Below are positions 7,343-48,538 of a stretch of 64,000 bases of DNA, piece after piece (position 1 is the stretch's first letter; the number at the start of each line of letters is the position of its first letter). Position numbers and translations under genes: made by a program. The DNA is taken from NCBI GenBank assembly GCA_937142855.1, contig CAKZQZ010000031.1:2201-66200 (forward strand), read 5' to 3'. A model generated the notes under the pieces. It saw nothing but the letters and a program-made list of their open reading frames with translations, searched no databases and was not told the origin of the DNA. The DNA is from an uncultured Alphaproteobacteria bacterium (GTDB taxonomy: Bacteria > Pseudomonadota > Alphaproteobacteria > Puniceispirillales > Marisalimonadaceae).

Positions 7343-8320
7343 ATGATTAAATCTAAAACACTTTTCAAAGTTGGAACTGGTTTAGCTGCTATAGTTTCAG
7401 CTGTAGCATTTACTTCTGCTCCAGCATTAGCTGCTAAGAAGCCTGCTATTGAAGTTGTAACACACGCAGGTGCTGGTGGTGGTACCGATGTTAACTCAAG
7501 AATGATGATGCTTCGTTCAAGAAGAGTTTTAAAACAGGATATGGTAGTTGTGAATAAAAGAGGCGGCGGTGGAGCTGCTGCAATGAATTACTTCATGACA
7601 AGACCTGCAGATGGGAACACTATTTTAACTTTTACAGTTGGTCACGCCATTACAATGGCAATGGGCAAAACTAAATTAAAAGTTGAGGATATGGCACCTA
7701 TAGCAAGAGGTACAAATGATCCTCAGATATTGATGGTGAATTGTAAAACTAGCCCGTATAAAACTCCTGAAGCATTTGTAGCAGGAATGAAAAAGGGTGA
7801 CAAAATTGCTTTTGGTGGAACTCATACAGGTACTATTGATCATATAACAGCATATTTGTTTGCTAAAAAACTCGGTCAGCCAATGCCTAAATATATTCCA
7901 TTTAAAGGTGGTGGAGAACTTGCAACGCAAGTTGTAGCCGGCGCTGTGGACGTTGGAGTTTTAAATTTATCTGAAGCTGGTGGACCAATTGATGCAGGTG
8001 ATTTATGCCCATTAGTTATCTTAGGTGATAATGCTATGGCACCAATTCCTAAAGCTAAAACTGCTAAGTCAATGGGTATTGATCTTGTTCTATCAACTAC
8101 TAGAGGATTTGTTACACACGCAGGAGCTGATAAAGCAAGAGTTGCTGAGCTTGAAGCAGGTTTGTCAAAAGCTATGAAACATTCTATGTATCAAGCTTAC
8201 CTTGCAAATTCTGGGTTAGATAACACTTCTCCACAACCTTCTGGTCCTTGGGGTGAGCAGATTAAGTTTATGGTTGGTGAATTTGGTCCTGCTTTAAAAG
8301 AAATGGGCTTAATTAAGTAA
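7343..8320 (+). CDS. tctC: Tripartite tricarboxylate transporter substrate-binding protein (TctC/Bug)
   Basis: Signal peptide, AGAGGGTD, NKRGGGG, YIPFKGGGE, VVAGAVDVG; GGAGG RBS; followed by tctB and tctA. Confidence 0.9.
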   Translation: MIKSKTLFKVGTGLAAIVSAVAFTSAPALAAKKPAIEVVTHAGAGGGTDVNSRMMMLRSRRVLKQDMVVVNKRGGGGAAAMNYFMTRPADGNTILTFTVGHAITMAMGKTKLKVEDMAPIARGTNDPQILMVNCKTSPYKTPEAFVAGMKKGDKIAFGGTHTGTIDHITAYLFAKKLGQPMPKYIPFKGGGELATQVVAGAVDVGVLNLSEAGGPIDAGDLCPLVILGDNAMAPIPKAKTAKSMGIDLVLSTTRGFVTHAGADKARVAELEAGLSKAMKHSMYQAYLANSGLDNTSPQPSGPWGEQIKFMVGEFGPALKEMGLIK

Positions 8321-8334
8321 AAACAAATCAATTT

Positions 8335-8358
8335 AGATGCCCCTTTTTTGGGGCATCT
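8335..8358 (+). terminator. Stem-loop between tctC and tctB
   Basis: AGATGCCCC-TTTTTT-GGGGCATCT, 9-bp GC-rich stem just after the tctC stop. Confidence 0.7.
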
Positions 8359-8370
8359 GAAAGTTTTATT

Positions 8371-8835
8371 ATGAATATTAAAATTTACTCTATACCTCTA
8401 TTTCTTACGATATTCTCTATTGTAATAATTTATTTATCTCTTCAATTAGAGACTTCTCCTGAGATGATAGTGGGTGATAGTATGCAAGCTCGTTCATTTC
8501 CCATTTTTTTAATGGTTATTAATTTAATACTGGTAGGAGTACTATCATACCAATTCTCTAAAACTTACCCGAAAGAAGTCGAGCTTGAAAAATTTCCTAC
8601 TTGGTCAAGTATGTTACTTTTCTTAGTCTTTTATATTTTAGTAACAATCAGTGGCGATCTATTTGTAGCGATACCTGTAATCATGTTTTTAATGGGTATG
8701 GTATGGGGACAAAAGAAATTATGGGTTAGCCTTACTAACGCTATTATAACTCCACTCTCCGTTTTTCTTCTTTTTGATTATGTTCTCCAAGTAAGATTTC
8801 CTCGGGGATGGTTAACAAATATTTATTATGGTTAG
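8371..8835 (+). CDS. tctB: TTT small transmembrane subunit TctB
   Basis: About four TM helices, ARSFP motif, C-terminal LFDYVLQVRFPRG; lies between tctC and tctA. Confidence 0.85.
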   Translation: MNIKIYSIPLFLTIFSIVIIYLSLQLETSPEMIVGDSMQARSFPIFLMVINLILVGVLSYQFSKTYPKEVELEKFPTWSSMLLFLVFYILVTISGDLFVAIPVIMFLMGMVWGQKKLWVSLTNAIITPLSVFLLFDYVLQVRFPRGWLTNIYYG

Positions 8836-8846
8836 GTTAAAGTTAC

Positions 8847-10328
8847 ATGATTGAAGCATTATCAGCTATGGCATCAGTGTTTACTGATCCCTACTTATTA
8901 GTTTTAATTTTTGCCACCACTATATTAGGTGTGATTATAGGTGTATTACCTGGTTTAGGTGCAACAACAGGTGCAGCTTTGTTACTGCCATTTACCTTGA
9001 CAATGGAGCCCGTGCAAGCAATAGCCGTTTTATCAACAATATACGTATCGGCCACCTTTGCAGGGTCTATTACAGCCATATTAATCAACACACCAGGAAC
9101 TTCAGCAGCGGCAGCCACTACCTTCGATGGATACCCGTTAGCTCAAAAAGGGGAAGCTGGAAGAGCTCTTGGTATTGCCGTTGTATCAAGTACTATTGGG
9201 GGCGTGTTCTCTGTTATAGTTTTATGTATAGCCGCTCCCCTCCTAGCCAGGGTAGCCTATGAGTTTCGTCCACCAGAATATTTTGCCTTAACTATATTTG
9301 GATTATCAATGCTAGCTAGTATAAGTGCTGGAGGTGCTGTCAAAAATCTTATTGGTGGTATTTTTGGAGTATGGCTCTCTACAATTGGCGCTGAAAGAGT
9401 TACGGCCATAGAAAGATTTATGTTTGGAAATTACGATTTATACGAAGGCCTCTCTTTTGTTCCAGTATTTATTGGTCTCTTTGCCATCTCAGAACTACTT
9501 GTTCAATCTAAAATGGTTAATAGGGTTGTAAATGCAGTATCTTTGAAAGCCGTAAAATTACCTACAAAAGAAGACTATAAAAAAATATGGAAGACCATTG
9601 TTCGGTCTTCGGGTATAGGTACTTTTATTGGGATTCTTCCTGCAGAAGGAGCCACTGTTGCTTCAATGATTGGATACTCAGAAGCAAAAAGATGGTCTAA
9701 AAATAAAGAAGAATTTGGAAAAGGCTCTATTGAGGGAATTGCAGGTGCTGAAGCAGCTAATAATTCAGCAACAGGCGGAGCAATGGTTCCAACTATGGTT
9801 CTTGGAATACCAGGCAGTGGAACAACAGCAATAATATTAGTTGGCTTAATGGTTCATGGACTTAGACCAGGAGCTTATTTGTTTACTGAACAAGTTGAAA
9901 AAGTTTACCAAATATTTGGCTCAATGTTATTAGCTAATTTAATGTTTATGGCAATGGGTCTTTACGCAGCAAGGCTTTTTGCAAGAGTGTCATTAGTTCC
10001 AATATCAATATTATGGCCTATTGTTTTTGCGCTCTCTGTTATAGGTGCGTATGCTCTTTCTCAATCACTGATTGATGTATGGATAGCTTTGATTTTTGGT
10101 GTGATAGGCTTTTTTGCAAGAAGACATGGGTTTGCTGTTGCGCCAATAGCCGTTGGTTTGATTTTAGGAGAAATGGTAGAGACTAACCTTCAACATTCTT
10201 TAAAAATGTATGATGGTCAATGGTGGATGATATTTGCCCAACCGCTAGCTTTATTTTTTCTTGTATTAGCTTTTTTAGGACTTTGTGGACCTTATTTATA
10301 TAGTTTGATTGTAAAGCGTAAGGACTAA
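8847..10328 (+). CDS. tctA: TTT large transmembrane subunit TctA
   Basis: GVLPGLGAT, ILINTPGT..AAATTFDGYPLA, GAEAANNSATGGAMVPT..LGIPG. Confidence 0.93.
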   Translation: MIEALSAMASVFTDPYLLVLIFATTILGVIIGVLPGLGATTGAALLLPFTLTMEPVQAIAVLSTIYVSATFAGSITAILINTPGTSAAAATTFDGYPLAQKGEAGRALGIAVVSSTIGGVFSVIVLCIAAPLLARVAYEFRPPEYFALTIFGLSMLASISAGGAVKNLIGGIFGVWLSTIGAERVTAIERFMFGNYDLYEGLSFVPVFIGLFAISELLVQSKMVNRVVNAVSLKAVKLPTKEDYKKIWKTIVRSSGIGTFIGILPAEGATVASMIGYSEAKRWSKNKEEFGKGSIEGIAGAEAANNSATGGAMVPTMVLGIPGSGTTAIILVGLMVHGLRPGAYLFTEQVEKVYQIFGSMLLANLMFMAMGLYAARLFARVSLVPISILWPIVFALSVIGAYALSQSLIDVWIALIFGVIGFFARRHGFAVAPIAVGLILGEMVETNLQHSLKMYDGQWWMIFAQPLALFFLVLAFLGLCGPYLYSLIVKRKD

Positions 10329-11083
10329 AAACTATTTAAATAACCACTCATCTTTATAGAATTCCAAACAAGATTTAATGCTATTAAAGTTAATATTGTA
10401 TTAAGAACAAGCTTAAAGTATTTTTTGCCAAACTTTATTAGTATTTTTTTGCCAATTATAGTTCCAATAAAACCACTTATGATCATACCAGCAATGAGAA
10501 AAAAATATTCTGCATACGCAAACCCTACAAATCCAAAAATAACCACTTTTGCTGAGTGTTGGATTGTCATTAATGCTGAATGAGTTGCTAAATGCTTAAC
10601 TGGTTCTAGCTTCATAGTTTTAACCATACCCGCAACCAATGTACCAGAGGCTCCAAAAAACATTGTACAAAAACCAGAAAAAACTCCACCTAAGGTTATG
10701 TGACTAGCACCAACAGCTGGAATTTTACCAAAGACAGACCATAAGATAAAAACAGCTACAATTAATTGAAGTAACCAAGGTTCAATTTGTACAAAAAATG
10801 TACCACCCAGGAAAGATCCTAATATTGTTCCTAGACTAAAAGGAATAATGACATCTTTTTTAATATCTTTTAAAAAAATCATTGTTCTGCCAAAGTTAGA
10901 ACCAATTTGTACAATCCCATGAATAGGCAGTAAGGCAAAAGGAGGAAGCTTAATTGCAAGCAAACCTATTAAAACAGCACCTCCTCCAATACCAAAAGCT
11001 GAGGTTATAAAAGACGTAACCATACTCGCAAAAATTAAAAAATAAAAAGTAAATTCAGAGAGATCAGCTGGGATATCTATCAT
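10325..11083 (-). CDS. TauE/SafE (TSUP) family sulfite/anion exporter
   Basis: FGIGGGAVLI and FFGASG repeat halves, about eight TM helices. ATG 11083 with AAGGA RBS, two nt after the upstream stop. Confidence 0.8.
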   Translation of the reverse strand: MIDIPADLSEFTFYFLIFASMVTSFITSAFGIGGGAVLIGLLAIKLPPFALLPIHGIVQIGSNFGRTMIFLKDIKKDVIIPFSLGTILGSFLGGTFFVQIEPWLLQLIVAVFILWSVFGKIPAVGASHITLGGVFSGFCTMFFGASGTLVAGMVKTMKLEPVKHLATHSALMTIQHSAKVVIFGFVGFAYAEYFFLIAGMIISGFIGTIIGKKILIKFGKKYFKLVLNTILTLIALNLVWNSIKMSGYLNSF

Positions 11084-11085
11084 TC

Positions 11086-12738
11086 TCAATCCTTTTGAGC
11101 ATGAGGTGGAGGAGCAAAATAACGGGGCATTTCTCCAACTGAATGGACGTTTACTTCTAAAAGAACAGGTCCTAAAAAATTCAAAGCTTGTTTTAACTTT
11201 TCTTCTAAATCGTCTGCGTGATCAATTCTAGAATATTTAATTTTAGCTGCTTTTGCTAATTCTTCAAAGTTTGGTCCAATCAGGTCGGCATAAAATTTTC
11301 TTCCTCCATACATACTTTCTTGAATGTGTTTTATCACTCCATAACCCTGATCATTCATGACAAGGAAAACCACATCACAATTAGTTTCTACTGCAGTCCA
11401 CAAGTCTGGAAGATTCAACATAAAACCACCATCACCACACATTGCGATAGTCTTATTACCCTTACAACCTATTGATGCTCCTATAGCAAGTGCCATTCCC
11501 GGACCAATAGCAGCACCCACTGGATAAATATTTTGTTGTGGTTCATTGATAAACATAGATCTATTACCCCACATACTATTGGATATAGTTACATCTCTAA
11601 CCCACATACCATTTTCTGGTAAAACCTTTCTGACAATTTCTGGAAAATCTTTGTATGCTCCAAGATTGCTCTTATAATCCTCTAAGATTTTATTTTTTAA
11701 TTGAGAGATCTCATTCTCCCATTCTTTATCTAGAGTTAATTGGTTTGATAATCTATTAGATAATTCATCTAAAACTTTCTGCGCATCACCACAGTGGAAT
11801 TTTTTAGTTTTATAAGTCCTATTTTTGGCTTTAGGATCAATATCAATCTGAATAATGTTATTAGGCAGTTTTAGAGACATATCCCTAGTTTCATGACCTC
11901 TTAATCTACTACCAGCAACTATCATTAAGTCTACTGTTTTATAAAATTCTTCTATTAGTGGTACCGCATTAAAAGCACCTAAGCTCATATGATTACTCTC
12001 AGATATTACACCTCTACCCAGTGTGCTAGTAACTATTGCAAATCCCATATTTATAAATTTTTTTACTTCCTCTCTAGCAAACTTACATCCATTTCCTACC
12101 CAAAGCATTTTTCTTTTTGAGTTCTTAATTATGGTTTCAATTTCGTCTAAAGATGCTTCTTCTCCAAGTTTTAAATCTATCGATGGTATTTTGATTTGTT
12201 CAAGGTTTTTGGGTTTTGATACAACTGTTCTTTGAATATCAATAGGTATTTCAATTGATACCGGTCCTTTAGGCGGGGTTAAAGATATCTTGACTGCATC
12301 TAATAATTTTGAGAGGACATTTTCCGCATCATCAATTCTAATAGCCGCTTTGGATATTGATTTTAGCATTCCCAGCTGATTTGAAACATCATGAACCGTT
12401 CCTTGATTTTTATCTAAGTTTTCTGTTGCAGTTTGACCGGTAAAGTGAAGAACCGCTGATCCAGAAAACCTTGCTTCGACAATTGCTCCAGCAATATTTG
12501 CTGCTCCTGGACCAGTACTTGTAAAAACAACGCCAAGTCCATTATGGGCTCTAGCGTATCCATCAGCCATATGACCTGCGCCCATTTCTCCTCTTGCTGG
12601 GATCATTTTAATATAATTTCGCCTTCCAATTGCGTCTAACATTGGGATGTTATGAACAGAAACAACGCCAAAAACATCTTCAACTCCCAAACAATGCAAA
12701 AACTCTGCAACTAAATCGCCCACATTATATTCAGACAT
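11086..12738 (-). CDS. Thiamine pyrophosphate-dependent enzyme (acetolactate synthase-like superfamily, function unknown)
   Basis: GDLVAEFL, ARGEMGAGHMADGYAR, TSTGPG, TPP motif GDGGFM...NDQGYG. ATG 12738 preceded by AAGGGGG. Confidence 0.88.
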   Translation of the reverse strand: MSEYNVGDLVAEFLHCLGVEDVFGVVSVHNIPMLDAIGRRNYIKMIPARGEMGAGHMADGYARAHNGLGVVFTSTGPGAANIAGAIVEARFSGSAVLHFTGQTATENLDKNQGTVHDVSNQLGMLKSISKAAIRIDDAENVLSKLLDAVKISLTPPKGPVSIEIPIDIQRTVVSKPKNLEQIKIPSIDLKLGEEASLDEIETIIKNSKRKMLWVGNGCKFAREEVKKFINMGFAIVTSTLGRGVISESNHMSLGAFNAVPLIEEFYKTVDLMIVAGSRLRGHETRDMSLKLPNNIIQIDIDPKAKNRTYKTKKFHCGDAQKVLDELSNRLSNQLTLDKEWENEISQLKNKILEDYKSNLGAYKDFPEIVRKVLPENGMWVRDVTISNSMWGNRSMFINEPQQNIYPVGAAIGPGMALAIGASIGCKGNKTIAMCGDGGFMLNLPDLWTAVETNCDVVFLVMNDQGYGVIKHIQESMYGGRKFYADLIGPNFEELAKAAKIKYSRIDHADDLEEKLKQALNFLGPVLLEVNVHSVGEMPRYFAPPPHAQKD

Positions 12739-12820
12739 TTTTACCCCCTTTTGACTTAACATGTTAAAAATCTTATATTAATTTTTCAATTTGTTAAAAT
12801 TAAATTATGATTGTCTTCTT

Positions 12821-14386
12821 ATGGAAAAAACATTAAGTGCGAATAAAATTAAGAGTTGGCTTTCAGACAATAAAGAGATCTCATTTATTGATGTTAGAGA
12901 AATTGGACAACACACTGAAGGTCATCCATTTTTTTCTATCTCGGTTCCATACAGTATATTTGAATATAGACTTTTAGAGCTTTTACCTAATAAAAATGTC
13001 AGAGTTGTATTGTTCGATAATAATGACGGTATTGCTAACTTAGCTGCAAAACAAGCCAAACTCATAGGTTATAAGAATATTTTTATTTTAGAAAATGGTA
13101 TAGATGGTTGGTTAAATGCAGGTTTTGAATTATTCGACGGAATCAATGTGCCAAGCAAAAGTTTTGGTGAACTTGTTGAGCATAAGTACAATACACCATC
13201 AATAAACTCAAATGAGTTGTTTAATAAACAAAAACAAAAAAAAGATCTCATTATTTTAGATGGGCGGCCATTTGAGGAATATGAAAAAATGAGTATCCCA
13301 GGAAGTATTTGTTGTCCTAACGCAGAAATTCCATATAAAATATCTTCTTTAGTCAAAAATACTAAAACAGAAATTATTGTTAATTGTGCTGGTAGAACAA
13401 GGTCCATTATTGGAGCCCAAGCTCTTATTAATTTTGGTGTTGAAAACAAAGTTTATGCTTTGGAAAATGGAACGCAAGGATGGTTTTTGTCTGATTTAAA
13501 ATTAGACCATGGAAAAAAAAACTACCTAGATATACAACCAAATGAAGAAGAGATTAAAAAATTAAACTCTAAGATAAAGTCCTTACTAATTGACAATGAA
13601 ATTGAAATTATAAATTTAAAAAAAGCAAATGATCTAATTAGTAAAAAGGATAGGTCTACATTTATTTTTGATGTTACAACAAAAAAATCACTTAAAGATA
13701 AGGTCAGTTTTATAAAAAATGTTCCAGGAGGACAATTAGTTCAGGCAACAGATAATTTTGTTGGAGTATTAAATTCACAAATAATACTTTTGGACGAAGG
13801 TGACCTTGTAAGATCAGGCATAACCGCACTATGGTTGAAAAAATTAAACTTTGATTGCTATGTCCTTGATGTAAAGCATGAAGAAATAAAAAACTTAAAC
13901 TTTAAAAATAATAAAGAATACGAAAGTCAAACTGCTCAAAAACTAACTCTAAATGAGTTAAAAAACATGAGAAATATCTTGATCTTTGATATTAGAAATA
14001 GCGTTGACTTCTGCAAATCAAGATTAAAACAATCTACTTGGTTAAACCGGTGTAATCTCAAAGACTATAATAATTTAATCAAGAAAAACGTTATCTTAGT
14101 TTGTGATGATTTACATAAGTTAAGCCTAATCCAAAAAGATCTAAATATTAAATTTCCAGATATTGATATTAAAGTTTATTATTGGGATGAAATAGATAAG
14201 GATAAATTTTCAGAGTATTTTGATACAAGTGAAATTCAGATGAACAAAAACTTTATTGACTTTAATTTTCATACTTATTTACGTCATAACGGAAATAAGG
14301 AACATGCTACACAGTATTTAAAATGGGAAACAGGTTTGTTGAATAGAATGGATAAGGAGGAAACAAGTTTTTTTAAATATTTTTAA
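12821..14386 (+). CDS. Four-domain rhodanese/sulfurtransferase
   Basis: Repeated DVRE/DGRP/DVTT/DIRN rhodanese starts, active-site loop NCAGRTRS in domain 2, C-terminal YLKWETGL. Start could be TTG 12791. Confidence 0.85.
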   Translation: MEKTLSANKIKSWLSDNKEISFIDVREIGQHTEGHPFFSISVPYSIFEYRLLELLPNKNVRVVLFDNNDGIANLAAKQAKLIGYKNIFILENGIDGWLNAGFELFDGINVPSKSFGELVEHKYNTPSINSNELFNKQKQKKDLIILDGRPFEEYEKMSIPGSICCPNAEIPYKISSLVKNTKTEIIVNCAGRTRSIIGAQALINFGVENKVYALENGTQGWFLSDLKLDHGKKNYLDIQPNEEEIKKLNSKIKSLLIDNEIEIINLKKANDLISKKDRSTFIFDVTTKKSLKDKVSFIKNVPGGQLVQATDNFVGVLNSQIILLDEGDLVRSGITALWLKKLNFDCYVLDVKHEEIKNLNFKNNKEYESQTAQKLTLNELKNMRNILIFDIRNSVDFCKSRLKQSTWLNRCNLKDYNNLIKKNVILVCDDLHKLSLIQKDLNIKFPDIDIKVYYWDEIDKDKFSEYFDTSEIQMNKNFIDFNFHTYLRHNGNKEHATQYLKWETGLLNRMDKEETSFFKYF

Positions 14387-14416
14387 AGTAAAATGTAATT
14401 CTTTAATTTCAAAGAA

Positions 14417-14926
14417 TTACATTGCTTGTATGTTTGATCTCTTAATATTATCTAAATTGGCACCTTCTATTCTTAACAGTCTTACTGGGTCTTTACGAAC
14501 AGGAGAATGTACATGACCTACTCCATAAAAATGAACGTCTCCGGCTTTCATTGTATATGTTTTCTTAGGTTTAACAAAAATTATATCATCAACTGATCTT
14601 TCTTTAATTATCTCCCAATCAGTCATCTCTGTTTCTCCTGAGGCTTGACCATAAATAGCCCAACTCGATCCATGATCATGAGGTGATCCTATTGCTTCTG
14701 TACTATAAACATGACCACAAACACAAAAACCTGTTTCCTTATCTTCATAAAGTATCTGCCTTGGGTGCTCTCCATTTTGTCTATCTGGAAGATTTTCTGA
14801 TATGAAGTTTTGATCCATAAGAGCCTTTGAGACAAAATAACATATCTTATCCGAGCCATTGGGAAGTGATTCCTGTAAAATAGCATCTTTTATATCTATA
14901 ATCAGGTCATTTAAAGAATAAGGCAT
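14417..14926 (-). CDS. Cysteine-dioxygenase-like (thiol dioxygenase) 3-His cupin
   Basis: PHDHGSSWAIYGQASGETE (H83, H85) and VHSP (H140); GGAGGG RBS. Confidence 0.7.
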   Translation of the reverse strand: MPYSLNDLIIDIKDAILQESLPNGSDKICYFVSKALMDQNFISENLPDRQNGEHPRQILYEDKETGFCVCGHVYSTEAIGSPHDHGSSWAIYGQASGETEMTDWEIIKERSVDDIIFVKPKKTYTMKAGDVHFYGVGHVHSPVRKDPVRLLRIEGANLDNIKRSNIQAM

Positions 14927-14956: not shown

Positions 14957-15874
14957 TTAAAGGCCCCAGTTTAGTGCAATGGGGTTATACTTACTTGCTA
15001 GCTTAATTAATCCTTCTCTTGTATTAGCTTCTAATGGGGGAATTGGATGTCTACAAAAATCAGATTTTATAACTCCACCCTCCTTCATTATAGCTTTAGC
15101 GGCTCTGAAACCACATTGCCTGTTTTCATAATTAATTAATGGAAGTATTTCATTGTATTTATTTTCAGCCATATCAATTTTTCCATCAAGAAAATCTAAG
15201 ACTATTGGCCTTATTAAATCAGGTATCATTGCTGAACTCATGTTTCCCGTGGCTCCAGCTTCTAAATCAGCAAATAGAGTGATACCTTCTTCACCATCAA
15301 AAGGACCTTCAATGACATCTCCACCCTCTTTTACAAGAACTCTTAATTTAGCAGCTGCTTGAGCACATTCGATTTTAAAGCATTTGACCATCTCAATCTC
15401 TTTCGCCATTTTTACTAAAAGAGGAACTGGTAATTCAACTCCTGATAATGGTGCATCTTGAACCATTATGGTGACGCCAGCTTCACCAACTTTTGCAAAC
15501 TGCTCAAATGTCTGCTGTGGAGTTCCCTTCATTAGTGCTCCGTGATATGGAGCCATCATCATCAGCATTTCTCCACCTAGAGATTTAACTAATTTAGCCC
15601 TTGATAATGCAATGTCGGTAGAGAAATGACTAACGGTAGTAATAACGGGAACTCTACCATCAACATGCTCAATACATAATTTTGTTAGAATTTCTCTTTC
15701 CTCATCTGACAACAAAAATTGTTCTGAATAGTTAGCAAGGATGCATATTCCATCTACATTTTGGTCAATCATACAGTCAATTACTCTCTTCATTCCTTCT
15801 TTGTCAATTTCACCATTCGGCATGAAAGGAGTTGGAGCGACAGGCCAACAACCTTTAAATATATTATTAGCCAT
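14957..15874 (-). CDS. araD: DHDPS-family enzyme, L-2-keto-3-deoxyarabonate dehydratase-like
   Basis: GICILANYSEQF, MVQDAP, FKIE (Schiff-base Lys), GPFDGEEGITL, LPLINYENRQ: matches the recalled Azospirillum L-KDA dehydratase pattern rather than DapA. Confidence 0.75.
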   Translation of the reverse strand: MANNIFKGCWPVAPTPFMPNGEIDKEGMKRVIDCMIDQNVDGICILANYSEQFLLSDEEREILTKLCIEHVDGRVPVITTVSHFSTDIALSRAKLVKSLGGEMLMMMAPYHGALMKGTPQQTFEQFAKVGEAGVTIMVQDAPLSGVELPVPLLVKMAKEIEMVKCFKIECAQAAAKLRVLVKEGGDVIEGPFDGEEGITLFADLEAGATGNMSSAMIPDLIRPIVLDFLDGKIDMAENKYNEILPLINYENRQCGFRAAKAIMKEGGVIKSDFCRHPIPPLEANTREGLIKLASKYNPIALNWGL

Positions 15875-45246: not shown

Positions 45247-47052
45247 ATGAGTATATCAAGTAATGCATTTGAAGATGAAGATATTTTTATTGCAGATATT
45301 TTATCTAAAAATAAAATAATAGCTATGGTTGGGGCTAGTAAGAATTGGAAACGCCCCTCTAACTTTGTCATGAAATATCTTCAGAAACATGGGTACACAG
45401 TTATACCTATAAACCCTGGTAATGCAGGTCAATATATTCTGGATGAATTATGCTATGCATCCCTTCAAGATGTACCTATTAAAATAGATATGGTTAATAT
45501 ATTCAGACCTAGTGAGTTTTGTGCTTCGATTACTAAAGATGCAATAAGTATTGGTGCTAAAACTGTTTGGATGCAATTAGGTATTAAAAACGAAGAAGCT
45601 ATTAATTTAGGCAAAAAAGCAAAAATAAATGTTATTTATGATAAATGTCCAAAAATGGAACATTCAAGGTTATCTGGCGCACTTGGATTAGCTGGCTTTA
45701 ATTCACGATTAATTTCTTCAAAAAGACCTGTTGTTAAAAAACCACCATCAGCTTCAAGAAATGGAGGAATTGTAAAAACTAATGAATTAGAAACACTTGC
45801 TATACATGCAGGAACTAGACCTGATGCCTCAACTGGATCAAGAAGTATTCCAATTTATCAAACAACTTCTTTTACATTTGATGATATAGATCATGCAGCA
45901 AGCTTATTTAACCTTCAAGAACCAGGAAATATTTATGCTCGATTGTCTAATCCTACAATTTCTGCTCTAGAACAAAGAATAGCAGCTTTAGATGATGGCT
46001 TAGGCGCCTGCTGCGCCTCATCTGGGCATGCCGCACAAATGCTAGCTTTATTTCCTTTAATGGAGCCTGGGGCAAAAATAATTGCTAGTTCTAAATTATA
46101 TGGGGGTTCTATTACTCAATTTACTAAAACATTTAAAAACTTCTCTTGGGATGCTGAATTAGTTGATGTGTCTGATTTAGATGCTGTTAAGGATGCTGTT
46201 AAAGATGTTTCTGTAAAAGTTTTATTTGCTGAAAGTTTAGCTAACCCTGACGGAAATATAACCGATATTACATCTCTTGCAGATATAGCTCATGAAGCTG
46301 GTATTCCACTTGTAATTGATAACACAATGGCAACACAAATTTTATGTCAACCTGGAAAATTTGGAGCTGATTTAATTGTTTACTCAACAACAAAATTTTT
46401 ATCAGGACATGGAAACGCAATGGGTGGAGCTGTTGTAGATATGGGAAACTTTCCTTGGGATAAGGGTAGAGTATTTTCAAAACTAACAACTCCCGATTCT
46501 TCCTATCATGACATTAATTTTTATGAAAGTTTTGGAAACCATGCATTTATCAATTATTGCCATGCAAGTGTACTAAGAGATCTAGGATCAACAATGGCTC
46601 CTTTAAATGCATATTTAACGCTAATCGGTTTAGAAACTCTTCCGTTAAGAATGAAACAACACATGAAAAACGCGGAACTAGTTGCCAATTTTCTTAAAGA
46701 CCATCCAAAGGTAAATTACGTGTCTTGGGCAGGCTTTAAAGAAAATATTTATCATGAATTAGCAAAAAAATATTTTAAAGATGGGTTTGGTTCAGTTTTT
46801 ACATTTTCTGTAAATAGTGGATATGAAGGAGCCATAAAATTAGTAGAAAATTGCAACTTAATATCTCATCTTGCAAACGTAGGTGATACTAGGTCATTGA
46901 TTGTACATCCTGCATCAACGACACATAGACAACTGAATAATGAACAAAAAGAAAAATCTGGAGTTAGTGACTCTATAATTCGTTTGTCAATTGGACTAGA
47001 AAGTCATAAGGATATTATCGGTGACTTAGAAGGGGCTTTATCCAAAATATAA
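45247..47052 (+). CDS. metY: Fusion: YccU-like CoA-binding domain + O-acetylhomoserine sulfhydrylase (MetY family), copy 2
   Basis: N-terminal IAMVGAS..RPS..VM.YL..GY.VIPINP...WMQLG...CPKMEH, then a linker, then AIHAG, PIYQTTSF, YARLSNPT, YSTTKFLSGHG, HLANVGD, IRLSIGLE in one 601-aa frame. Confidence 0.88.
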   Translation: MSISSNAFEDEDIFIADILSKNKIIAMVGASKNWKRPSNFVMKYLQKHGYTVIPINPGNAGQYILDELCYASLQDVPIKIDMVNIFRPSEFCASITKDAISIGAKTVWMQLGIKNEEAINLGKKAKINVIYDKCPKMEHSRLSGALGLAGFNSRLISSKRPVVKKPPSASRNGGIVKTNELETLAIHAGTRPDASTGSRSIPIYQTTSFTFDDIDHAASLFNLQEPGNIYARLSNPTISALEQRIAALDDGLGACCASSGHAAQMLALFPLMEPGAKIIASSKLYGGSITQFTKTFKNFSWDAELVDVSDLDAVKDAVKDVSVKVLFAESLANPDGNITDITSLADIAHEAGIPLVIDNTMATQILCQPGKFGADLIVYSTTKFLSGHGNAMGGAVVDMGNFPWDKGRVFSKLTTPDSSYHDINFYESFGNHAFINYCHASVLRDLGSTMAPLNAYLTLIGLETLPLRMKQHMKNAELVANFLKDHPKVNYVSWAGFKENIYHELAKKYFKDGFGSVFTFSVNSGYEGAIKLVENCNLISHLANVGDTRSLIVHPASTTHRQLNNEQKEKSGVSDSIIRLSIGLESHKDIIGDLEGALSKI

Positions 47053-47182
47053 ATTAGATACTAACTTTCTAACTTTTTAAACATATTATTACCGCCAGAA
47101 ATGCTGGGCTTACTTTGCACTTGTTATAGCTAACTTATAATTATATAAAATTATTGTATTAATAATTTTAAGGAGCTTAATC

Positions 47183-48538
47183 ATGGACGGATTATGTTGT
47201 GGCCCAGGTTACGCTAGCCCCTCTGAAGCTATTAAAGCGCCCAGAGAAAAATTATTATATACCATAGCAATTTATACTGGGACTGGAATTCAAAAACCAG
47301 ACTATCTTGCTACTATTGATATAGATCCAGATAGTCCAAATTATTCAAAAGTTATTCATAGACTTGAAATGCCTGGCATTGGAGATGAACTTCATCATAT
47401 GGGTTGGAATGCATGTTCTTCATGTCATAATGATGAAAAAATGAGTCGTAAATACTTACTAGTACCTGGCGTTCGTTCTAATAATATATATGTAGTTGAT
47501 ACTGCCACTAATCCTATGTCACCAAGTATTTATAAAATAATTGATGGATCTGAAATTAAATCTAAAACTAATCTTTCAGGACCACATACAGTTCATTGTT
47601 TAGGGTCTGAAATTATTATTTCTTTTCTTGGAGATGCTAAAGGGGAAGCACCAGGAGGGTATTTGCATCTGAATAAAGATTTTGAAATTGTAGGTCGTTG
47701 GGAAAAATCTATGGGAAATATCCCTTTTAGTTATGACTTTTGGTACCAGCCACGCCATAACGTTATGATTAGTTCAGAATGGGCGGCACCAAACACTTTT
47801 ATGCCAGGATTTGATCTAGAAGAAGTTGGGCACTTAAAATATGGCCGTCGATTACATATTTGGGACTTTGAAAAGAAAAAACCAATTGAAACAATGTATT
47901 TAGGTGAGGATGGGCTTATACCGCTTGAAGTTAAGTTTTTACATAACCCTAATAGTAGCCATGGATTTTGTGGTGCCGCCCTAAGCACAAATGTAATTCA
48001 TTTCTGGAAATCTGAAGAAGGAAAATGGGAATGGGAAAAAATCATTGATGTCGATAATGAACCCCACCCAGATTGGCCAATTCCTATACCTGGTGTAATG
48101 TCGGCGATTTTAGTTTCAATGGACGACAAATATCTTTATATAAACAACTGGCTTCATGGTGATTTACGCCAATATAATATTTCTGATCCTCATAAACCTA
48201 TTCTAACTGGACAGATATGGATGGGCGGTCTTTTAGATAAAGCCCCTATTGTAAATGGAGTAAAAATTGCGGGTGGTCCACAAATGTATCAATTATCCTT
48301 AGATGGTAAGAGAATGTACGTAACAACCTCTCTTTTCTCAACATGGGATAATCAATTTTATCCAGAAATTCGTACTCAGGGTGGCGTTATGCTCATGATT
48401 GACTGTGACGTAGAAAATGGAGGCATGAAAATTAATGAGGATTTTGTTGTTGATTTTGGAAAAGAACCTAATGGACCCAGCAGATGTCACGAAAGCCGTT
48501 ACCCAGGAGGCGATTGTACAAGTGATATTTGGTTATGA
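47183..48538 (+). CDS. Selenium-binding protein SBP56/SELENBP1-like (methanethiol oxidase family), cytoplasmic
   Basis: CCGPGYASP, DYLATID.DP.SP, DELHHMGWNACSSC, HTVH, YDFWYQPRHNVMISSEW, NWLHGD, GGPQM, STWDNQFYP, RYPGGDCTSDIW; AAGGAG RBS; no signal peptide. Confidence 0.92.
   Translation: MDGLCCGPGYASPSEAIKAPREKLLYTIAIYTGTGIQKPDYLATIDIDPDSPNYSKVIHRLEMPGIGDELHHMGWNACSSCHNDEKMSRKYLLVPGVRSNNIYVVDTATNPMSPSIYKIIDGSEIKSKTNLSGPHTVHCLGSEIIISFLGDAKGEAPGGYLHLNKDFEIVGRWEKSMGNIPFSYDFWYQPRHNVMISSEWAAPNTFMPGFDLEEVGHLKYGRRLHIWDFEKKKPIETMYLGEDGLIPLEVKFLHNPNSSHGFCGAALSTNVIHFWKSEEGKWEWEKIIDVDNEPHPDWPIPIPGVMSAILVSMDDKYLYINNWLHGDLRQYNISDPHKPILTGQIWMGGLLDKAPIVNGVKIAGGPQMYQLSLDGKRMYVTTSLFSTWDNQFYPEIRTQGGVMLMIDCDVENGGMKINEDFVVDFGKEPNGPSRCHESRYPGGDCTSDIWL

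What the first reader, a model, noticed from the sequence alone, without database searches (positions are those of the whole stretch)
12821..14926. Atypical thiol-dioxygenase-like cupin convergent on a four-domain rhodanese
Seen: a 169-aa cupin with a CDO-like 3-His set (H83, H85, H140), but the C-terminal Ser-His-Tyr outer-sphere motif of CDO/MDO is replaced by LLRIEG. It ends 30 bp from a roughly 520-aa rhodanese with a clear catalytic loop (CAGRTRS) in domain 2 and Asp at the matching position in domains 1 and 3. Known: thiol dioxygenases (3-mercaptopropionate, mercaptosuccinate) occur with multi-domain rhodaneses, e.g. P. aeruginosa PA2602/PA2603 and Variovorax mercaptosuccinate catabolism. 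Inference: a thiol-carboxylate oxidation module for an unknown marine thiol, with a non-canonical active site. TctCBA (uptake) and TauE (sulfite export) are nearby.
Basis: partly seen in the sequence, partly recalled or inferred. Interest (0 to 1): 0.7.

Follow-up and report, generated by a model that had tools for sequence, protein, structure and literature searches.

The report
Divergent thiol-dioxygenase-like cupin with rhodanese partner
It has lost their usual helper residues but keeps their usual four-domain sulfur-transfer partner, so it probably oxidises a small acidic thiol in a way nobody has yet tested.

Summary
The 169-aa protein (14417-14926, minus strand) matches no Pfam or NCBIfam model.

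**Evidence that it is a thiol-dioxygenase relative**
- Its AlphaFold model (pLDDT 93.6) hits only thiol dioxygenases in the PDB. MSDO 8VNI is the top hit, followed by 3MDO, CDO, ADO and PCO.
- A broad family profile reaches MSDO (E 3.5e-11) and 3MDO (E 3e-7) by sequence alone.
- The alignments keep the three His ligands (H83, H85, H140). They also keep both substrate-carboxylate arginines: R56 = CDO R60 / MSDO R66, and R163 = 3MDO R168 / MSDO R175.
- The Ser-His-Tyr outer sphere is replaced by Leu-Arg-Glu. R152 is invariant across about 780 sequence clusters.
- In a tree the family forms its own clade (100/99), outside MSDO and MDO/CDO_I.

**The partner**
- The convergent neighbour is a PA2603/1YT8-type four-domain rhodanese with one catalytic loop (CAGRTRS).
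- This rhodanese type lies within four genes of the new cupin in 42 of 80 species loci, often among unrelated housekeeping genes.
- The same rhodanese type is also adjacent or fused to canonical MDO- and MSDO-like cupins.

**Verdict:** a new variant of the known thiol dioxygenase-rhodanese module. The substrate is unknown, and activity is inferred, not shown. The TctCBA, TauE and DHDPS-like neighbours are specific to SAR116.

The parts
14417..14926 (-). 169-aa cupin, a divergent member of the thiol-dioxygenase fold. Three His ligands: H83, H85, H140. Arginines: R56 and R163. Outer sphere: L150, R152, E154 in place of Ser-His-Tyr. Subfamily-specific: C68-x-C70-x-H72.
   Evidence: ORF. No Pfam or NCBIfam hit. 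AF2 pLDDT 93.6. Foldseek hits only thiol dioxygenases. hhalign. PDB profile hits with residue alignments. Conservation. Tree.
12821..14386 (+). 521-aa four-domain rhodanese of the PA2603/1YT8 type. The single catalytic loop CAGRTRS (Cys189) is in domain 2. Asp occupies the equivalent site in domains 1 and 3.
   Evidence: Pfam Rhodanese. PDB 1yt8 at E 7e-76. Start confirmed by an identical 521-aa cluster. Loop conservation. Adjacency statistics.
14393..14422 (.). Perfect 12-bp inverted repeat with a 6-nt loop, lying between the two convergent genes and overlapping the cupin stop codon and last codon (14417-14422). It may be a bidirectional terminator hairpin.
   Evidence: Read directly from the sequence. 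The consensus terminator scan did not flag it, because the stem is AT-rich.
14957..15874 (-). DHDPS-family (class I aldolase-like) gene directly upstream of the cupin, probably co-transcribed with it. This neighbour is specific to the lineage.
   Evidence: Pfam DHDPS. It sits upstream of the cupin in 20 of 20 same-genus loci and is absent from loci outside SAR116.
10325..12762 (-). TPP enzyme of the PRK07064 type (11086-12762) and a TauE-family exporter (10325-11089), divergent from the rhodanese. This context is specific to SAR116.
   Evidence: Orthologues above 59% identity occur only in SAR116 loci.
7343..10328 (+). TctC-TctB-TctA tripartite carboxylate transporter. This context is specific to SAR116.
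   Evidence: Pfam TctC on the window's protein. Pfam labels TctB and TctA on the called genes at the matching positions of L004.

Best explanation

Proposed mechanism (inferred):
- It binds a small anionic thiol through its thiolate. The carboxylate is held by R163 and R56, as in 3MDO and MSDO.
- It adds O2 to give a sulfinate, which may then release sulfite.
- The usual His-Tyr outer sphere is replaced by an invariant Arg (R152), paired in this subfamily with Glu (E154). This should change how O2 or a distal anionic group is positioned.

Partner (inferred role): the PA2603-type four-domain rhodanese, with one catalytic Cys, is its conserved functional partner. It probably handles the sulfite, sulfinate or sulfane sulfur made or needed by the cupin.

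SAR116 setting: the pair sits in an organosulfur (DMSP / methanethiol) island with a carboxylate transporter, acyl-CoA ligases and a TauE exporter. That setting fits 3-mercaptopropionate or a related mercapto-acid as the substrate.

Shown: fold, homology, residue equivalences and conserved gene pairing. Inferred: metal, O2 chemistry, substrate and the role of the rhodanese.
For: - Foldseek: the top 50 listed matches are all thiol dioxygenases. The best is MSDO 8VNI (E 8e-11, TM 0.79).
- Profile A3 against the PDB: MSDO at E 3.5e-11; Pa3MDO, Av3MDO and the R. eutropha CDO homologue at about 1e-6 to 1e-7; B. subtilis CDO at 0.004.
- These alignments pair H83/H85 with the HxH motif, H140 with the third His, R56 with MSDO R66 / 3MDO Q62, R152 with His163/157, E154 with Tyr165/159, and R163 with R175/R168.
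- hhalign against five Pfam-verified CDO_I proteins gives 94.9% probability over 157 columns.
- H140 and R152 are invariant, and H83 and H85 at least 90% conserved, in members at 27-47% identity.
- The rhodanese matches 1yt8 at E 7e-76.
- The rhodanese lies within four genes of the cupin in 42 of 80 species loci, mostly directly adjacent. In Hyphomicrobiaceae-type loci the other neighbours are housekeeping genes such as a pseudouridine synthase and MgsA.
- The same rhodanese type lies next to MDO-like cupins (9 loci) or MSDO-like cupins (8 loci) among 29 loci from a phylum-wide sample. Three of the MSDO-like cases are fusions, and two more fusions occur in Reyranella.
- The SAR116 genome has no other CDO_I gene and only one such rhodanese.
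- In 8 of 20 same-genus loci a family III CoA-transferase and an enoyl-CoA hydratase sit between the cupin and the rhodanese. The CoA-transferase is closest to succinate-glutarate CoA-transferase. This recalls the Advenella Mdo cluster of CoA-transferase III, desulfinase and TctC (PMC5373536).
- Literature: 3mdo and tst form one transcription unit (PMC12947264). The two Arg residues bind the carboxylates in MSDO (bioRxiv 10.64898/2026.05.19.726356). SHY raises the rate but is not required for activity (PMC8050391).
Against: - No Pfam or NCBIfam thiol-dioxygenase model matches.
- The His and Tyr of the SHY motif, shared by CDO, 3MDO and MSDO, are missing.
- The family sits on a long branch outside all sampled canonical enzymes, so the chemistry could have changed.
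- Most cupin-rhodanese pairs are convergent and so are not co-transcribed.
- Many family members have no adjacent rhodanese, for example Reyranella and Limibacillus.
- No conserved metabolic neighbour points to a particular thiol.
- Deleting tst had no significant effect on 3-MPA levels in P. protegens (PMC12947264).
- I could not read the model coordinates, so the metal-site geometry is inferred from alignment only.
Confidence: 0.55

Rival explanations
1. The cupin is a persulfide (sulfane-sulfur) dioxygenase built on a cupin fold. It oxidises a persulfide to sulfite. The persulfide is either a small molecule or is carried on Cys189 of the rhodanese. This would be a convergent analogue of ETHE1/CstB-type persulfide dioxygenase-rhodanese systems. 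R152 would stabilise the extra negative charge, and E154 would take the place of a substrate carboxylate.
For: - The two-gene pair is the only conserved unit across lineages and often sits among housekeeping genes. That fits a self-contained sulfur-detoxification module.
- Cupin-rhodanese fusions exist in the sister clade.
- The window also encodes an SBP56-family protein. That is the family of methanethiol oxidases, which release sulfide (my own knowledge).
- E154 occupies the Tyr position that lies about 3 A from the substrate carboxylate in 3MDO (PMC8050391).
Against: - Both carboxylate-binding Arg positions (R56, R163) are kept in this subfamily. That argues for a substrate with a carboxylate.
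- Canonical partners of the same rhodanese type (3MDO, MSDO) act on ordinary thiols.
- There is no direct evidence for protein-protein persulfide transfer.
Confidence: 0.15
2. The protein keeps the thiol-dioxygenase fold and metal site but carries out a different reaction. Examples would be C-S lyase or desulfinase chemistry, an isomerase, or oxidation of a non-thiol substrate. The loss of His-Tyr would mark this change of function.
For: - The family sits on a long branch outside all characterised enzymes.
- Five of the eight MSDO pocket positions differ (mapping).
- No family model recognises it.
- In SAR116 the cupin is always co-oriented behind a DHDPS-family aldolase-like gene. That could point to 2-oxo-acid chemistry.
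Against: - The conserved rhodanese partner is the same one used by genuine thiol dioxygenases.
- The three His ligands and both Arg positions are retained.
- The top 50 listed structural neighbours are all thiol dioxygenases.
Confidence: 0.15
3. The proximity to the rhodanese is a historical leftover with no functional coupling. In SAR116 the cupin serves the upstream operon of ligase, MetY, hydrolase, ligase and DHDPS-like genes, and the rhodanese serves the TPP-enzyme/TauE unit.
For: - The orientation is convergent, with a hairpin between the genes.
- In 8 of 20 genus loci two other genes separate them.
- The rhodanese diverges much faster than the cupin: 48-58% against 75-81% identity in most same-genus loci.
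Against: - The adjacency persists in distant lineages where all other neighbours differ.
- The same rhodanese type is fused to sister-clade cupins.
Confidence: 0.1

Closest known systems
Mercaptosuccinate dioxygenase (MSDO/Msdo), Variovorax paradoxus B4; PDB 8VNI, 9NYV, 9NYW
   Same: - It is the best structural match (TM 0.79) and the best sequence-profile match (E 3.5e-11).
- It shares the three His ligands.
- It has Ala at the CDO crosslink-Cys position (A90 = Ala99).
- Both carboxylate-binding Arg positions are present (R56 = Arg66, R163 = Arg175).
- Its gene is clustered with a rhodanese-domain protein (PMC5373536).
   Different: - Identity is only 19%.
- His163 is replaced by R152 and Tyr165 by E154. 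Further changes are Asn82 to H72, Lys88 to A78 and Gln64 to H54 (H54 is not conserved).
- The tree places it in a separate clade.
- MSDO-like cupins carry the PHNHTTWA and RH[LF]H[ML]YG signatures. This family carries PHDHG[SP]SWAIYGQ and R-I-E-G.
3-Mercaptopropionate dioxygenase with its tst partner (P. aeruginosa PA2602-PA2603; P. protegens c14110-c14100; PDB 4TLF, 6XB9, 1YT8)
   Same: - The fold is the same (E 3e-10; profile E 3e-7).
- R163 aligns with Arg168.
- The partner rhodanese matches 1YT8 at E 7e-76. The stretch IVNCAGRTRSIIG, which holds the catalytic loop, is identical.
   Different: - 3MDO has Gln at the R56 position and an intact Ser-His-Tyr motif.
- 3mdo and tst are co-transcribed (PMC12947264), whereas here the genes converge.
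- 3MDO matches Pfam CDO_I; this protein does not.
Cysteine dioxygenase (CDO_I, PF05995; rat, human and B. subtilis)
   Same: - It shares the cupin fold with N-terminal helices.
- It shares the three His ligands.
- It has Arg at the position of R60.
   Different: - There is no Cys-Tyr crosslink and no Ser-His-Tyr motif.
- The profile match is weak (E 0.004 to 0.6).
- There is no PF05995 hit.
Persulfide dioxygenase-rhodanese systems (ETHE1/CstB/PRF type)
   Same: They work alike: an O2-dependent iron enzyme that oxidises sulfur is paired or fused with a rhodanese. This rests on my own knowledge and was not tested here.
   Different: The fold is unrelated (metallo-beta-lactamase, with a 2-His-1-Asp iron site). 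There is no homology.

Membership tests
Thiol dioxygenases of the CDO/3MDO/MSDO type (Pfam CDO_I, PF05995) | Cupin barrel with N-terminal helical segment, superimposable on solved thiol dioxygenases | tested here: met
   AF2 model at pLDDT 93.6. The top 50 Foldseek PDB hits listed are all thiol dioxygenases, with TM up to 0.80.
Thiol dioxygenases of the CDO/3MDO/MSDO type (Pfam CDO_I, PF05995) | Three-His iron site (HxH in cupin motif 1 plus His in motif 2) | tested here: met
   H83, H85 and H140 align with the ligand His residues of MSDO and 3MDO. Across the family H140 is invariant and H83/H85 are at least 90% conserved. The geometry itself was not measured.
Thiol dioxygenases of the CDO/3MDO/MSDO type (Pfam CDO_I, PF05995) | Outer-sphere Ser(His)-His-Tyr motif next to the iron | tested here: not met
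   L150, R152 and E154 occupy the positions of Ser/His161, His163/157 and Tyr165/159. R152 is invariant; E154 becomes Thr in distant members.
Thiol dioxygenases of the CDO/3MDO/MSDO type (Pfam CDO_I, PF05995) | Significant match to the curated family model | tested here: not met
   No Pfam or NCBIfam hit even at E = 10. No thiol-dioxygenase or other cupin model is matched significantly by any of 31 diverse members. The genome search with PF05995 was negative. Homology shows only profile to profile.
Thiol dioxygenases of the CDO/3MDO/MSDO type (Pfam CDO_I, PF05995) | Arg that binds the substrate carboxylate (CDO R60 / MSDO R66, and/or 3MDO R168 / MSDO R175) | tested here: met
   R56 and R163 align with these positions. 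Both are invariant in the close subfamily.
Thiol dioxygenases of the CDO/3MDO/MSDO type (Pfam CDO_I, PF05995) | Fe(II)- and O2-dependent conversion of a thiol to a sulfinic acid | not testable with these tools
   This needs purified protein, metal analysis and O2-uptake or product assays.
PA2603/1YT8-type four-domain rhodanese | Four tandem rhodanese modules in about 520-540 aa, homologous over their length to 1YT8 | tested here: met
   phmmer gives E 7e-76 over residues 19-427. More than 7,000 homologues of similar length were found.
PA2603/1YT8-type four-domain rhodanese | Single catalytic Cys loop (CAGRTRS) in module 2; Asp or no nucleophile in the other modules | tested here: met
   Alignment of 41 partner rhodaneses.
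PA2603/1YT8-type four-domain rhodanese | Gene adjacency or fusion with a thiol-dioxygenase-fold cupin | tested here: met
   42 of 80 loci of the new cupin family. 17 of 29 rhodanese loci in a phylum-wide sample carry an MDO- or MSDO-like cupin, including fusions.
PA2603/1YT8-type four-domain rhodanese | Sulfurtransferase activity | not testable with these tools
   I found no biochemical data for this subfamily. The tst deletion had no significant phenotype in PMC12947264.
Cupin DMSP lyases (DddK/Q/W/L) | HxHxxxxExY metal motif and closest structural neighbours among the Ddd cupins | tested here: not met
   The motif here is H83-D-H85-G-S-S-W-A-I-Y, with no Glu. No Ddd protein appears among the top 50 Foldseek hits listed.

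The most novel reading that the evidence does not exclude
The invariant Arg (with Glu in this subfamily) that replaces His-Tyr may mark a change of substrate class. The enzyme would oxidise sulfane sulfur or a thiol without a carboxylate, for example a persulfide handed over by Cys189 of the rhodanese, or methanethiol or sulfide from the surrounding DMSP/methanethiol island. E154 would supply the carboxylate that 3MDO and MSDO take from their substrates. This would be a new cupin-based route from reduced sulfur to sulfite in abundant marine SAR116 bacteria and many soil Alphaproteobacteria.
Probability: 0.15. Interest if true: 0.8.

Novelty: new variant of a known kind. Interest (0 to 1): 0.55.

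Why it matters
Thiol dioxygenases are studied closely for their mechanism, and the His-Tyr outer sphere is treated as a shared hallmark of the small-molecule enzymes.

- This is a large natural clade: about 780 clusters at 50% identity, found in at least 576 species genomes.
- It keeps the iron ligands, the substrate arginines and the rhodanese partner, but swaps His-Tyr for Arg-Glu/Thr.
- It therefore offers a ready-made natural test of what the outer sphere does.
- It also gives a third, independent case for asking why these cupins travel with a four-domain rhodanese, a question still open for PA2602/PA2603 and for Msdo.
- It is nearly universal in one SAR116 genus and sits in a DMSP/methanethiol gene island. 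Its substrate may therefore be a marine thiol, such as 3-mercaptopropionate, whose bacterial sink is poorly known.

Tried and rejected
- Direct family assignment failed. Pfam at E = 10 and NCBIfam at E = 0.01 gave nothing for the cupin.
- A single-sequence search of the PDB and a search with the narrow profile A1 gave only chance hits: lamin, unsaturated glucuronyl hydrolase. Only the broader profile A3 reached the thiol dioxygenases.
- I considered a cupin DMSP lyase because of the DMSP context. I rejected it because the Glu/Tyr metal motif is missing and no Ddd protein appears among the top 50 listed structural neighbours.
- I looked for a conserved metabolic neighbour that would name the substrate. 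Outside SAR116 the neighbours are housekeeping genes (ValRS, TolC, pseudouridine synthase, MgsA) or vary between loci (aldehyde dehydrogenase, thiolase-like protein, a TPP enzyme with a TIGR03084 metal-binding protein). None is consistent.
- The TPP enzyme next to the rhodanese has orthologues only in SAR116, so it is not part of the core module.
- Expression evidence could not be obtained.
- Model coordinates are not exposed. I therefore could not measure distances from the metal site to R152, E154, H72 or C70.
Full report
**1. What is there**

The window has about 33% G+C. Titles of close relatives place it in the SAR116 cluster of marine Alphaproteobacteria. The genome is 2.32 Mb.

- The cupin is a clean 169-aa ORF at 14417-14926 on the minus strand.
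- It is the last gene of a minus-strand run: acyl-CoA ligase, O-acetylhomoserine sulfhydrylase, alpha/beta hydrolase, acyl-CoA ligase, DHDPS-family protein, cupin.
- The rhodanese ORF on the plus strand ends 30 bp from the cupin stop.
- The rhodanese gene as called elsewhere starts at the ATG at 12821, giving 521 aa, 100% identical to a database cluster.
- A perfect 12-bp inverted repeat with a 6-nt loop (14393-14422) lies between the two genes and runs over the cupin's stop codon and last codon.

*What did not work*
- It matches no Pfam or NCBIfam model, even at E = 10 for Pfam.
- It matches no PDB sequence, either alone or as a narrow profile.

*How large the family is*
- It has more than 1,296 homologues at 90% clustering.
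- A profile search of 1.84 billion representatives finds 779 clusters at 50% identity with E <= 1e-3.
- None of 31 diverse members matches a thiol-dioxygenase or other cupin Pfam model significantly; the one hit below E 0.01 is to an unrelated bacterial PH domain.
- A few JGI records name it only [quoted passage not shown].

*Structure*
- An AlphaFold2 model built on 26 homologues is confident: pLDDT 93.6, pTM 0.88.
- Its 50 best Foldseek matches in the PDB are all thiol dioxygenases.
- In order these are MSDO 8VNI (E 8e-11, TM 0.79), A. vinelandii and P. aeruginosa 3MDO, B. subtilis and mammalian CDO, then ADO, PCO4 and ergothioneine dioxygenase.

*Sequence*
- hhalign of the family against five Pfam-verified CDO_I proteins from the same class gives 94.9% probability over 157 columns.
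- A broader family profile (A3, members at 27-47% identity) reaches the PDB by sequence:

| PDB target | E-value |
|---|---|
| MSDO | 3.5e-11 |
| Pa3MDO | 3e-7 |
| Av3MDO | 7e-7 |
| R. eutropha CDO homologue | 1.4e-6 |
| B. subtilis CDO | 0.004 |

*Tree*
- In a maximum-likelihood tree the 31 family members form one clade (support 100/99).
- The clade sits on a long branch outside a clade holding the MSDO-like, MDO-like and other CDO_I sequences.

**3. Active-site comparison**

The HMMER alignments to solved enzymes were combined with the exact match of MSDO numbering on an MSDO-like neighbour (residue roles from bioRxiv 10.64898/2026.05.19.726356 and PMC8050391). They give these equivalences:

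| This protein | Equivalent in known enzymes |
|---|---|
| H83, H85, H140 | the three iron ligands |
| R56 | CDO R60 / MSDO R66 (Gln in 3MDO) |
| R163 | 3MDO R168 / MSDO R175 |
| A90 | MSDO Ala99 (the crosslink Cys in CDO) |
| P142 | MSDO Val151 |
| H72 | MSDO Asn82 |
| R152 | His163 (MSDO) / His157 (3MDO) |
| E154 | Tyr165 (MSDO) / Tyr159 (3MDO) |
| L150 | Ser/His of the motif |

- Both arginines that hold substrate carboxylates in 3MDO and MSDO are therefore kept. They are invariant in the close subfamily.
- The His-Tyr pair is gone.
- Across the whole family R152 is invariant. E154 is Glu in the subclade holding the window and Thr in the more distant one.
- C68-x-C70 is specific to the close subfamily.
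- The literature states that Ser-His-Tyr raises the rate but is not required for activity (PMC8050391). Its loss therefore does not exclude dioxygenase chemistry.
- I could not read the model coordinates. Whether E154 reaches the iron is unknown.

**4. The rhodanese and the pairing**

- The rhodanese matches PDB 1YT8, the P. aeruginosa "thiosulfate sulfurtransferase" (539-residue chain), at E 7e-76. The stretch IVNCAGRTRSIIG, which holds the catalytic loop, is identical.
- PA2603 is the tst gene co-transcribed with 3mdo (PA2602) in pseudomonads (PMC12947264).

*Within the genus*
- The cupin occurs in 31 of 36 genomes, many of them incomplete. It is rare elsewhere in the order.
- In 20 genus loci the DHDPS-like gene is always upstream of the cupin.
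- Downstream there is either the rhodanese directly (12 loci) or an enoyl-CoA hydratase plus a family III CoA-transferase (8 loci).
- Where the flank is long enough, the rhodanese follows those two inserted genes.

*Beyond the genus*
- I examined 80 species loci of the family from genome contigs.
- The rhodanese is within four genes of the cupin in 42 of them, usually directly adjacent. At the +1 position it is convergent in 28 and co-directional in 6.
- This holds in Hyphomicrobiaceae, in MAGs labelled Bradyrhizobium, and in other Alphaproteobacteria. In Hyphomicrobiaceae-type loci the remaining neighbours are unrelated housekeeping genes, such as a pseudouridine synthase and MgsA.
- One marine lineage has a completely different upstream context but the same convergent pair with a 30-nt gap.

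*The reverse test*
- In 401 genomes sampled across the phylum, this rhodanese type occurs in 24.
- Of 29 loci outside the window's own genome, 17 carry a thiol-dioxygenase-type cupin within 1.5 kb.
- Nine of these are MDO-like (SIHVYG) and eight are MSDO-like (RH[LF]H[ML]YG).
- Three of the MSDO-like cases are single cupin-rhodanese fusion proteins. Reyranella genomes carry two more fusions.
- The four-domain rhodanese is thus the habitual partner of three separate clades of this fold. The window holds the third and most divergent clade.
- The SAR116 genome has no canonical CDO_I gene and only this one rhodanese of the type.

**5. Context and substrate**

- The window is an organosulfur island. 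Pfam confirms an SBP56-family protein, a CoA-binding/MetY fusion, a DmdC-like acyl-CoA dehydrogenase, several acyl-CoA ligases and a fused 2-oxoacid oxidoreductase. TctC and TauE are confirmed directly, and TctB/TctA through the labelled genes of L004.
- The TPP enzyme, TauE, TctCBA and the DHDPS operon accompany the cupin only in SAR116. They bear on the local use of the enzyme, not on the core function of the family.
- The inserted CoA-transferase is closest to succinate-glutarate and succinyl-CoA:mesaconate CoA-transferases.
- The characterised Advenella Mdo cluster contains a family III CoA-transferase, a desulfinase and TctC receptors (PMC5373536).
- This parallel, together with the two retained arginines, makes 3-mercaptopropionate or another mercapto-acid the most economical guess. 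It remains a guess.

**6. Explanations**

- *Best, about 0.55:* a divergent Fe(II) thiol dioxygenase. It acts on a small anionic thiol and works with the rhodanese, which deals with sulfite, sulfinate or sulfane sulfur.
- *Rival, about 0.15:* a cupin-based persulfide dioxygenase fed by the rhodanese.
- *Rival, about 0.15:* a changed, non-dioxygenase chemistry on the same scaffold.
- *Rival, about 0.10:* adjacency without functional coupling.
- The role of the rhodanese is unknown even for the canonical pairs. Deleting tst had no significant effect on 3-MPA in P. protegens (PMC12947264).

**7. Novelty and limits**

- The cupin-rhodanese pairing itself is known from the literature. Earlier notes of this scan recorded it many times, and one of them mentions a "third, very divergent cupin type".
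- What is new here is the definition of that third clade: its size, its signature (PHDHG[SP]SWAIYGQ ... R-[IV]-[ET]-G), its residue mapping onto solved enzymes, and its near-universal presence in one SAR116 genus.
- I rate it a new variant of a known kind and of moderate interest.
- All functional statements are inferences from homology and synteny.

Noticed in passing
window 14393-14422: A perfect 12-bp inverted repeat (ATGTAATTCTTT / AAAGAATTACAT) with a 6-nt loop lies between the convergent rhodanese and cupin genes and overlaps the cupin stop codon and last codon. It may be an AT-rich bidirectional terminator. The consensus scan did not report it.
   Followed up: partly
L124, L141, L142 (phylum sample); L145, L146 (Reyranella): Single open frames of 729-857 codons join an MSDO-like cupin to the four-domain rhodanese. 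These are natural fusions of the sister-clade pair.
   Followed up: partly
L017-L019, L021-L023, L026, L027; L004 10547-12497: In 8 of 20 same-genus loci an enoyl-CoA hydratase and a family III CoA-transferase sit between the cupin and the rhodanese. The CoA-transferase is closest to succinate-glutarate CoA-transferase. A homologue of it (51% identity) also lies next to a canonical Gln-type CDO_I gene in L011.
   Followed up: partly
L014 (same-genus genome G169): The rhodanese next to the cupin matches only residues 3-185 and 420-529 of the window's protein, so the catalytic loop appears to be deleted. The DHDPS-like gene there is also split. This may be a real deletion or an assembly fault.
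   Followed up: no
L001, L002, L058, L073, L080: In Hyphomicrobiaceae-type genomes the cupin follows a different TPP enzyme (PRK07586 type, about 20% identical to the window's) and a TIGR03084 DinB/MDMPI-like metal-binding protein, all in the same orientation.
   Followed up: partly
window 45247-48538: A 601-aa fusion of a CoA-binding domain with a MetY-type PLP enzyme lies beside a 451-aa SBP56-family protein (PF05694 at E 1.6e-203). The whole window looks like a DMSP/methanethiol island.
   Followed up: partly
window 10325-12762: A TPP enzyme matches NCBIfam PRK07064 well above its cut-off (704 bits) and overlaps a TauE-family exporter gene by 4 bp. Orthologues occur only in SAR116 loci. This looks like a candidate sulfite-releasing step that is not Xsc.
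   Followed up: partly
P0179, P0201: Some JGI records name homologues of this four-domain rhodanese "cystathionine beta-lyase". This looks like an annotation carried over from a neighbouring gene.
   Followed up: no
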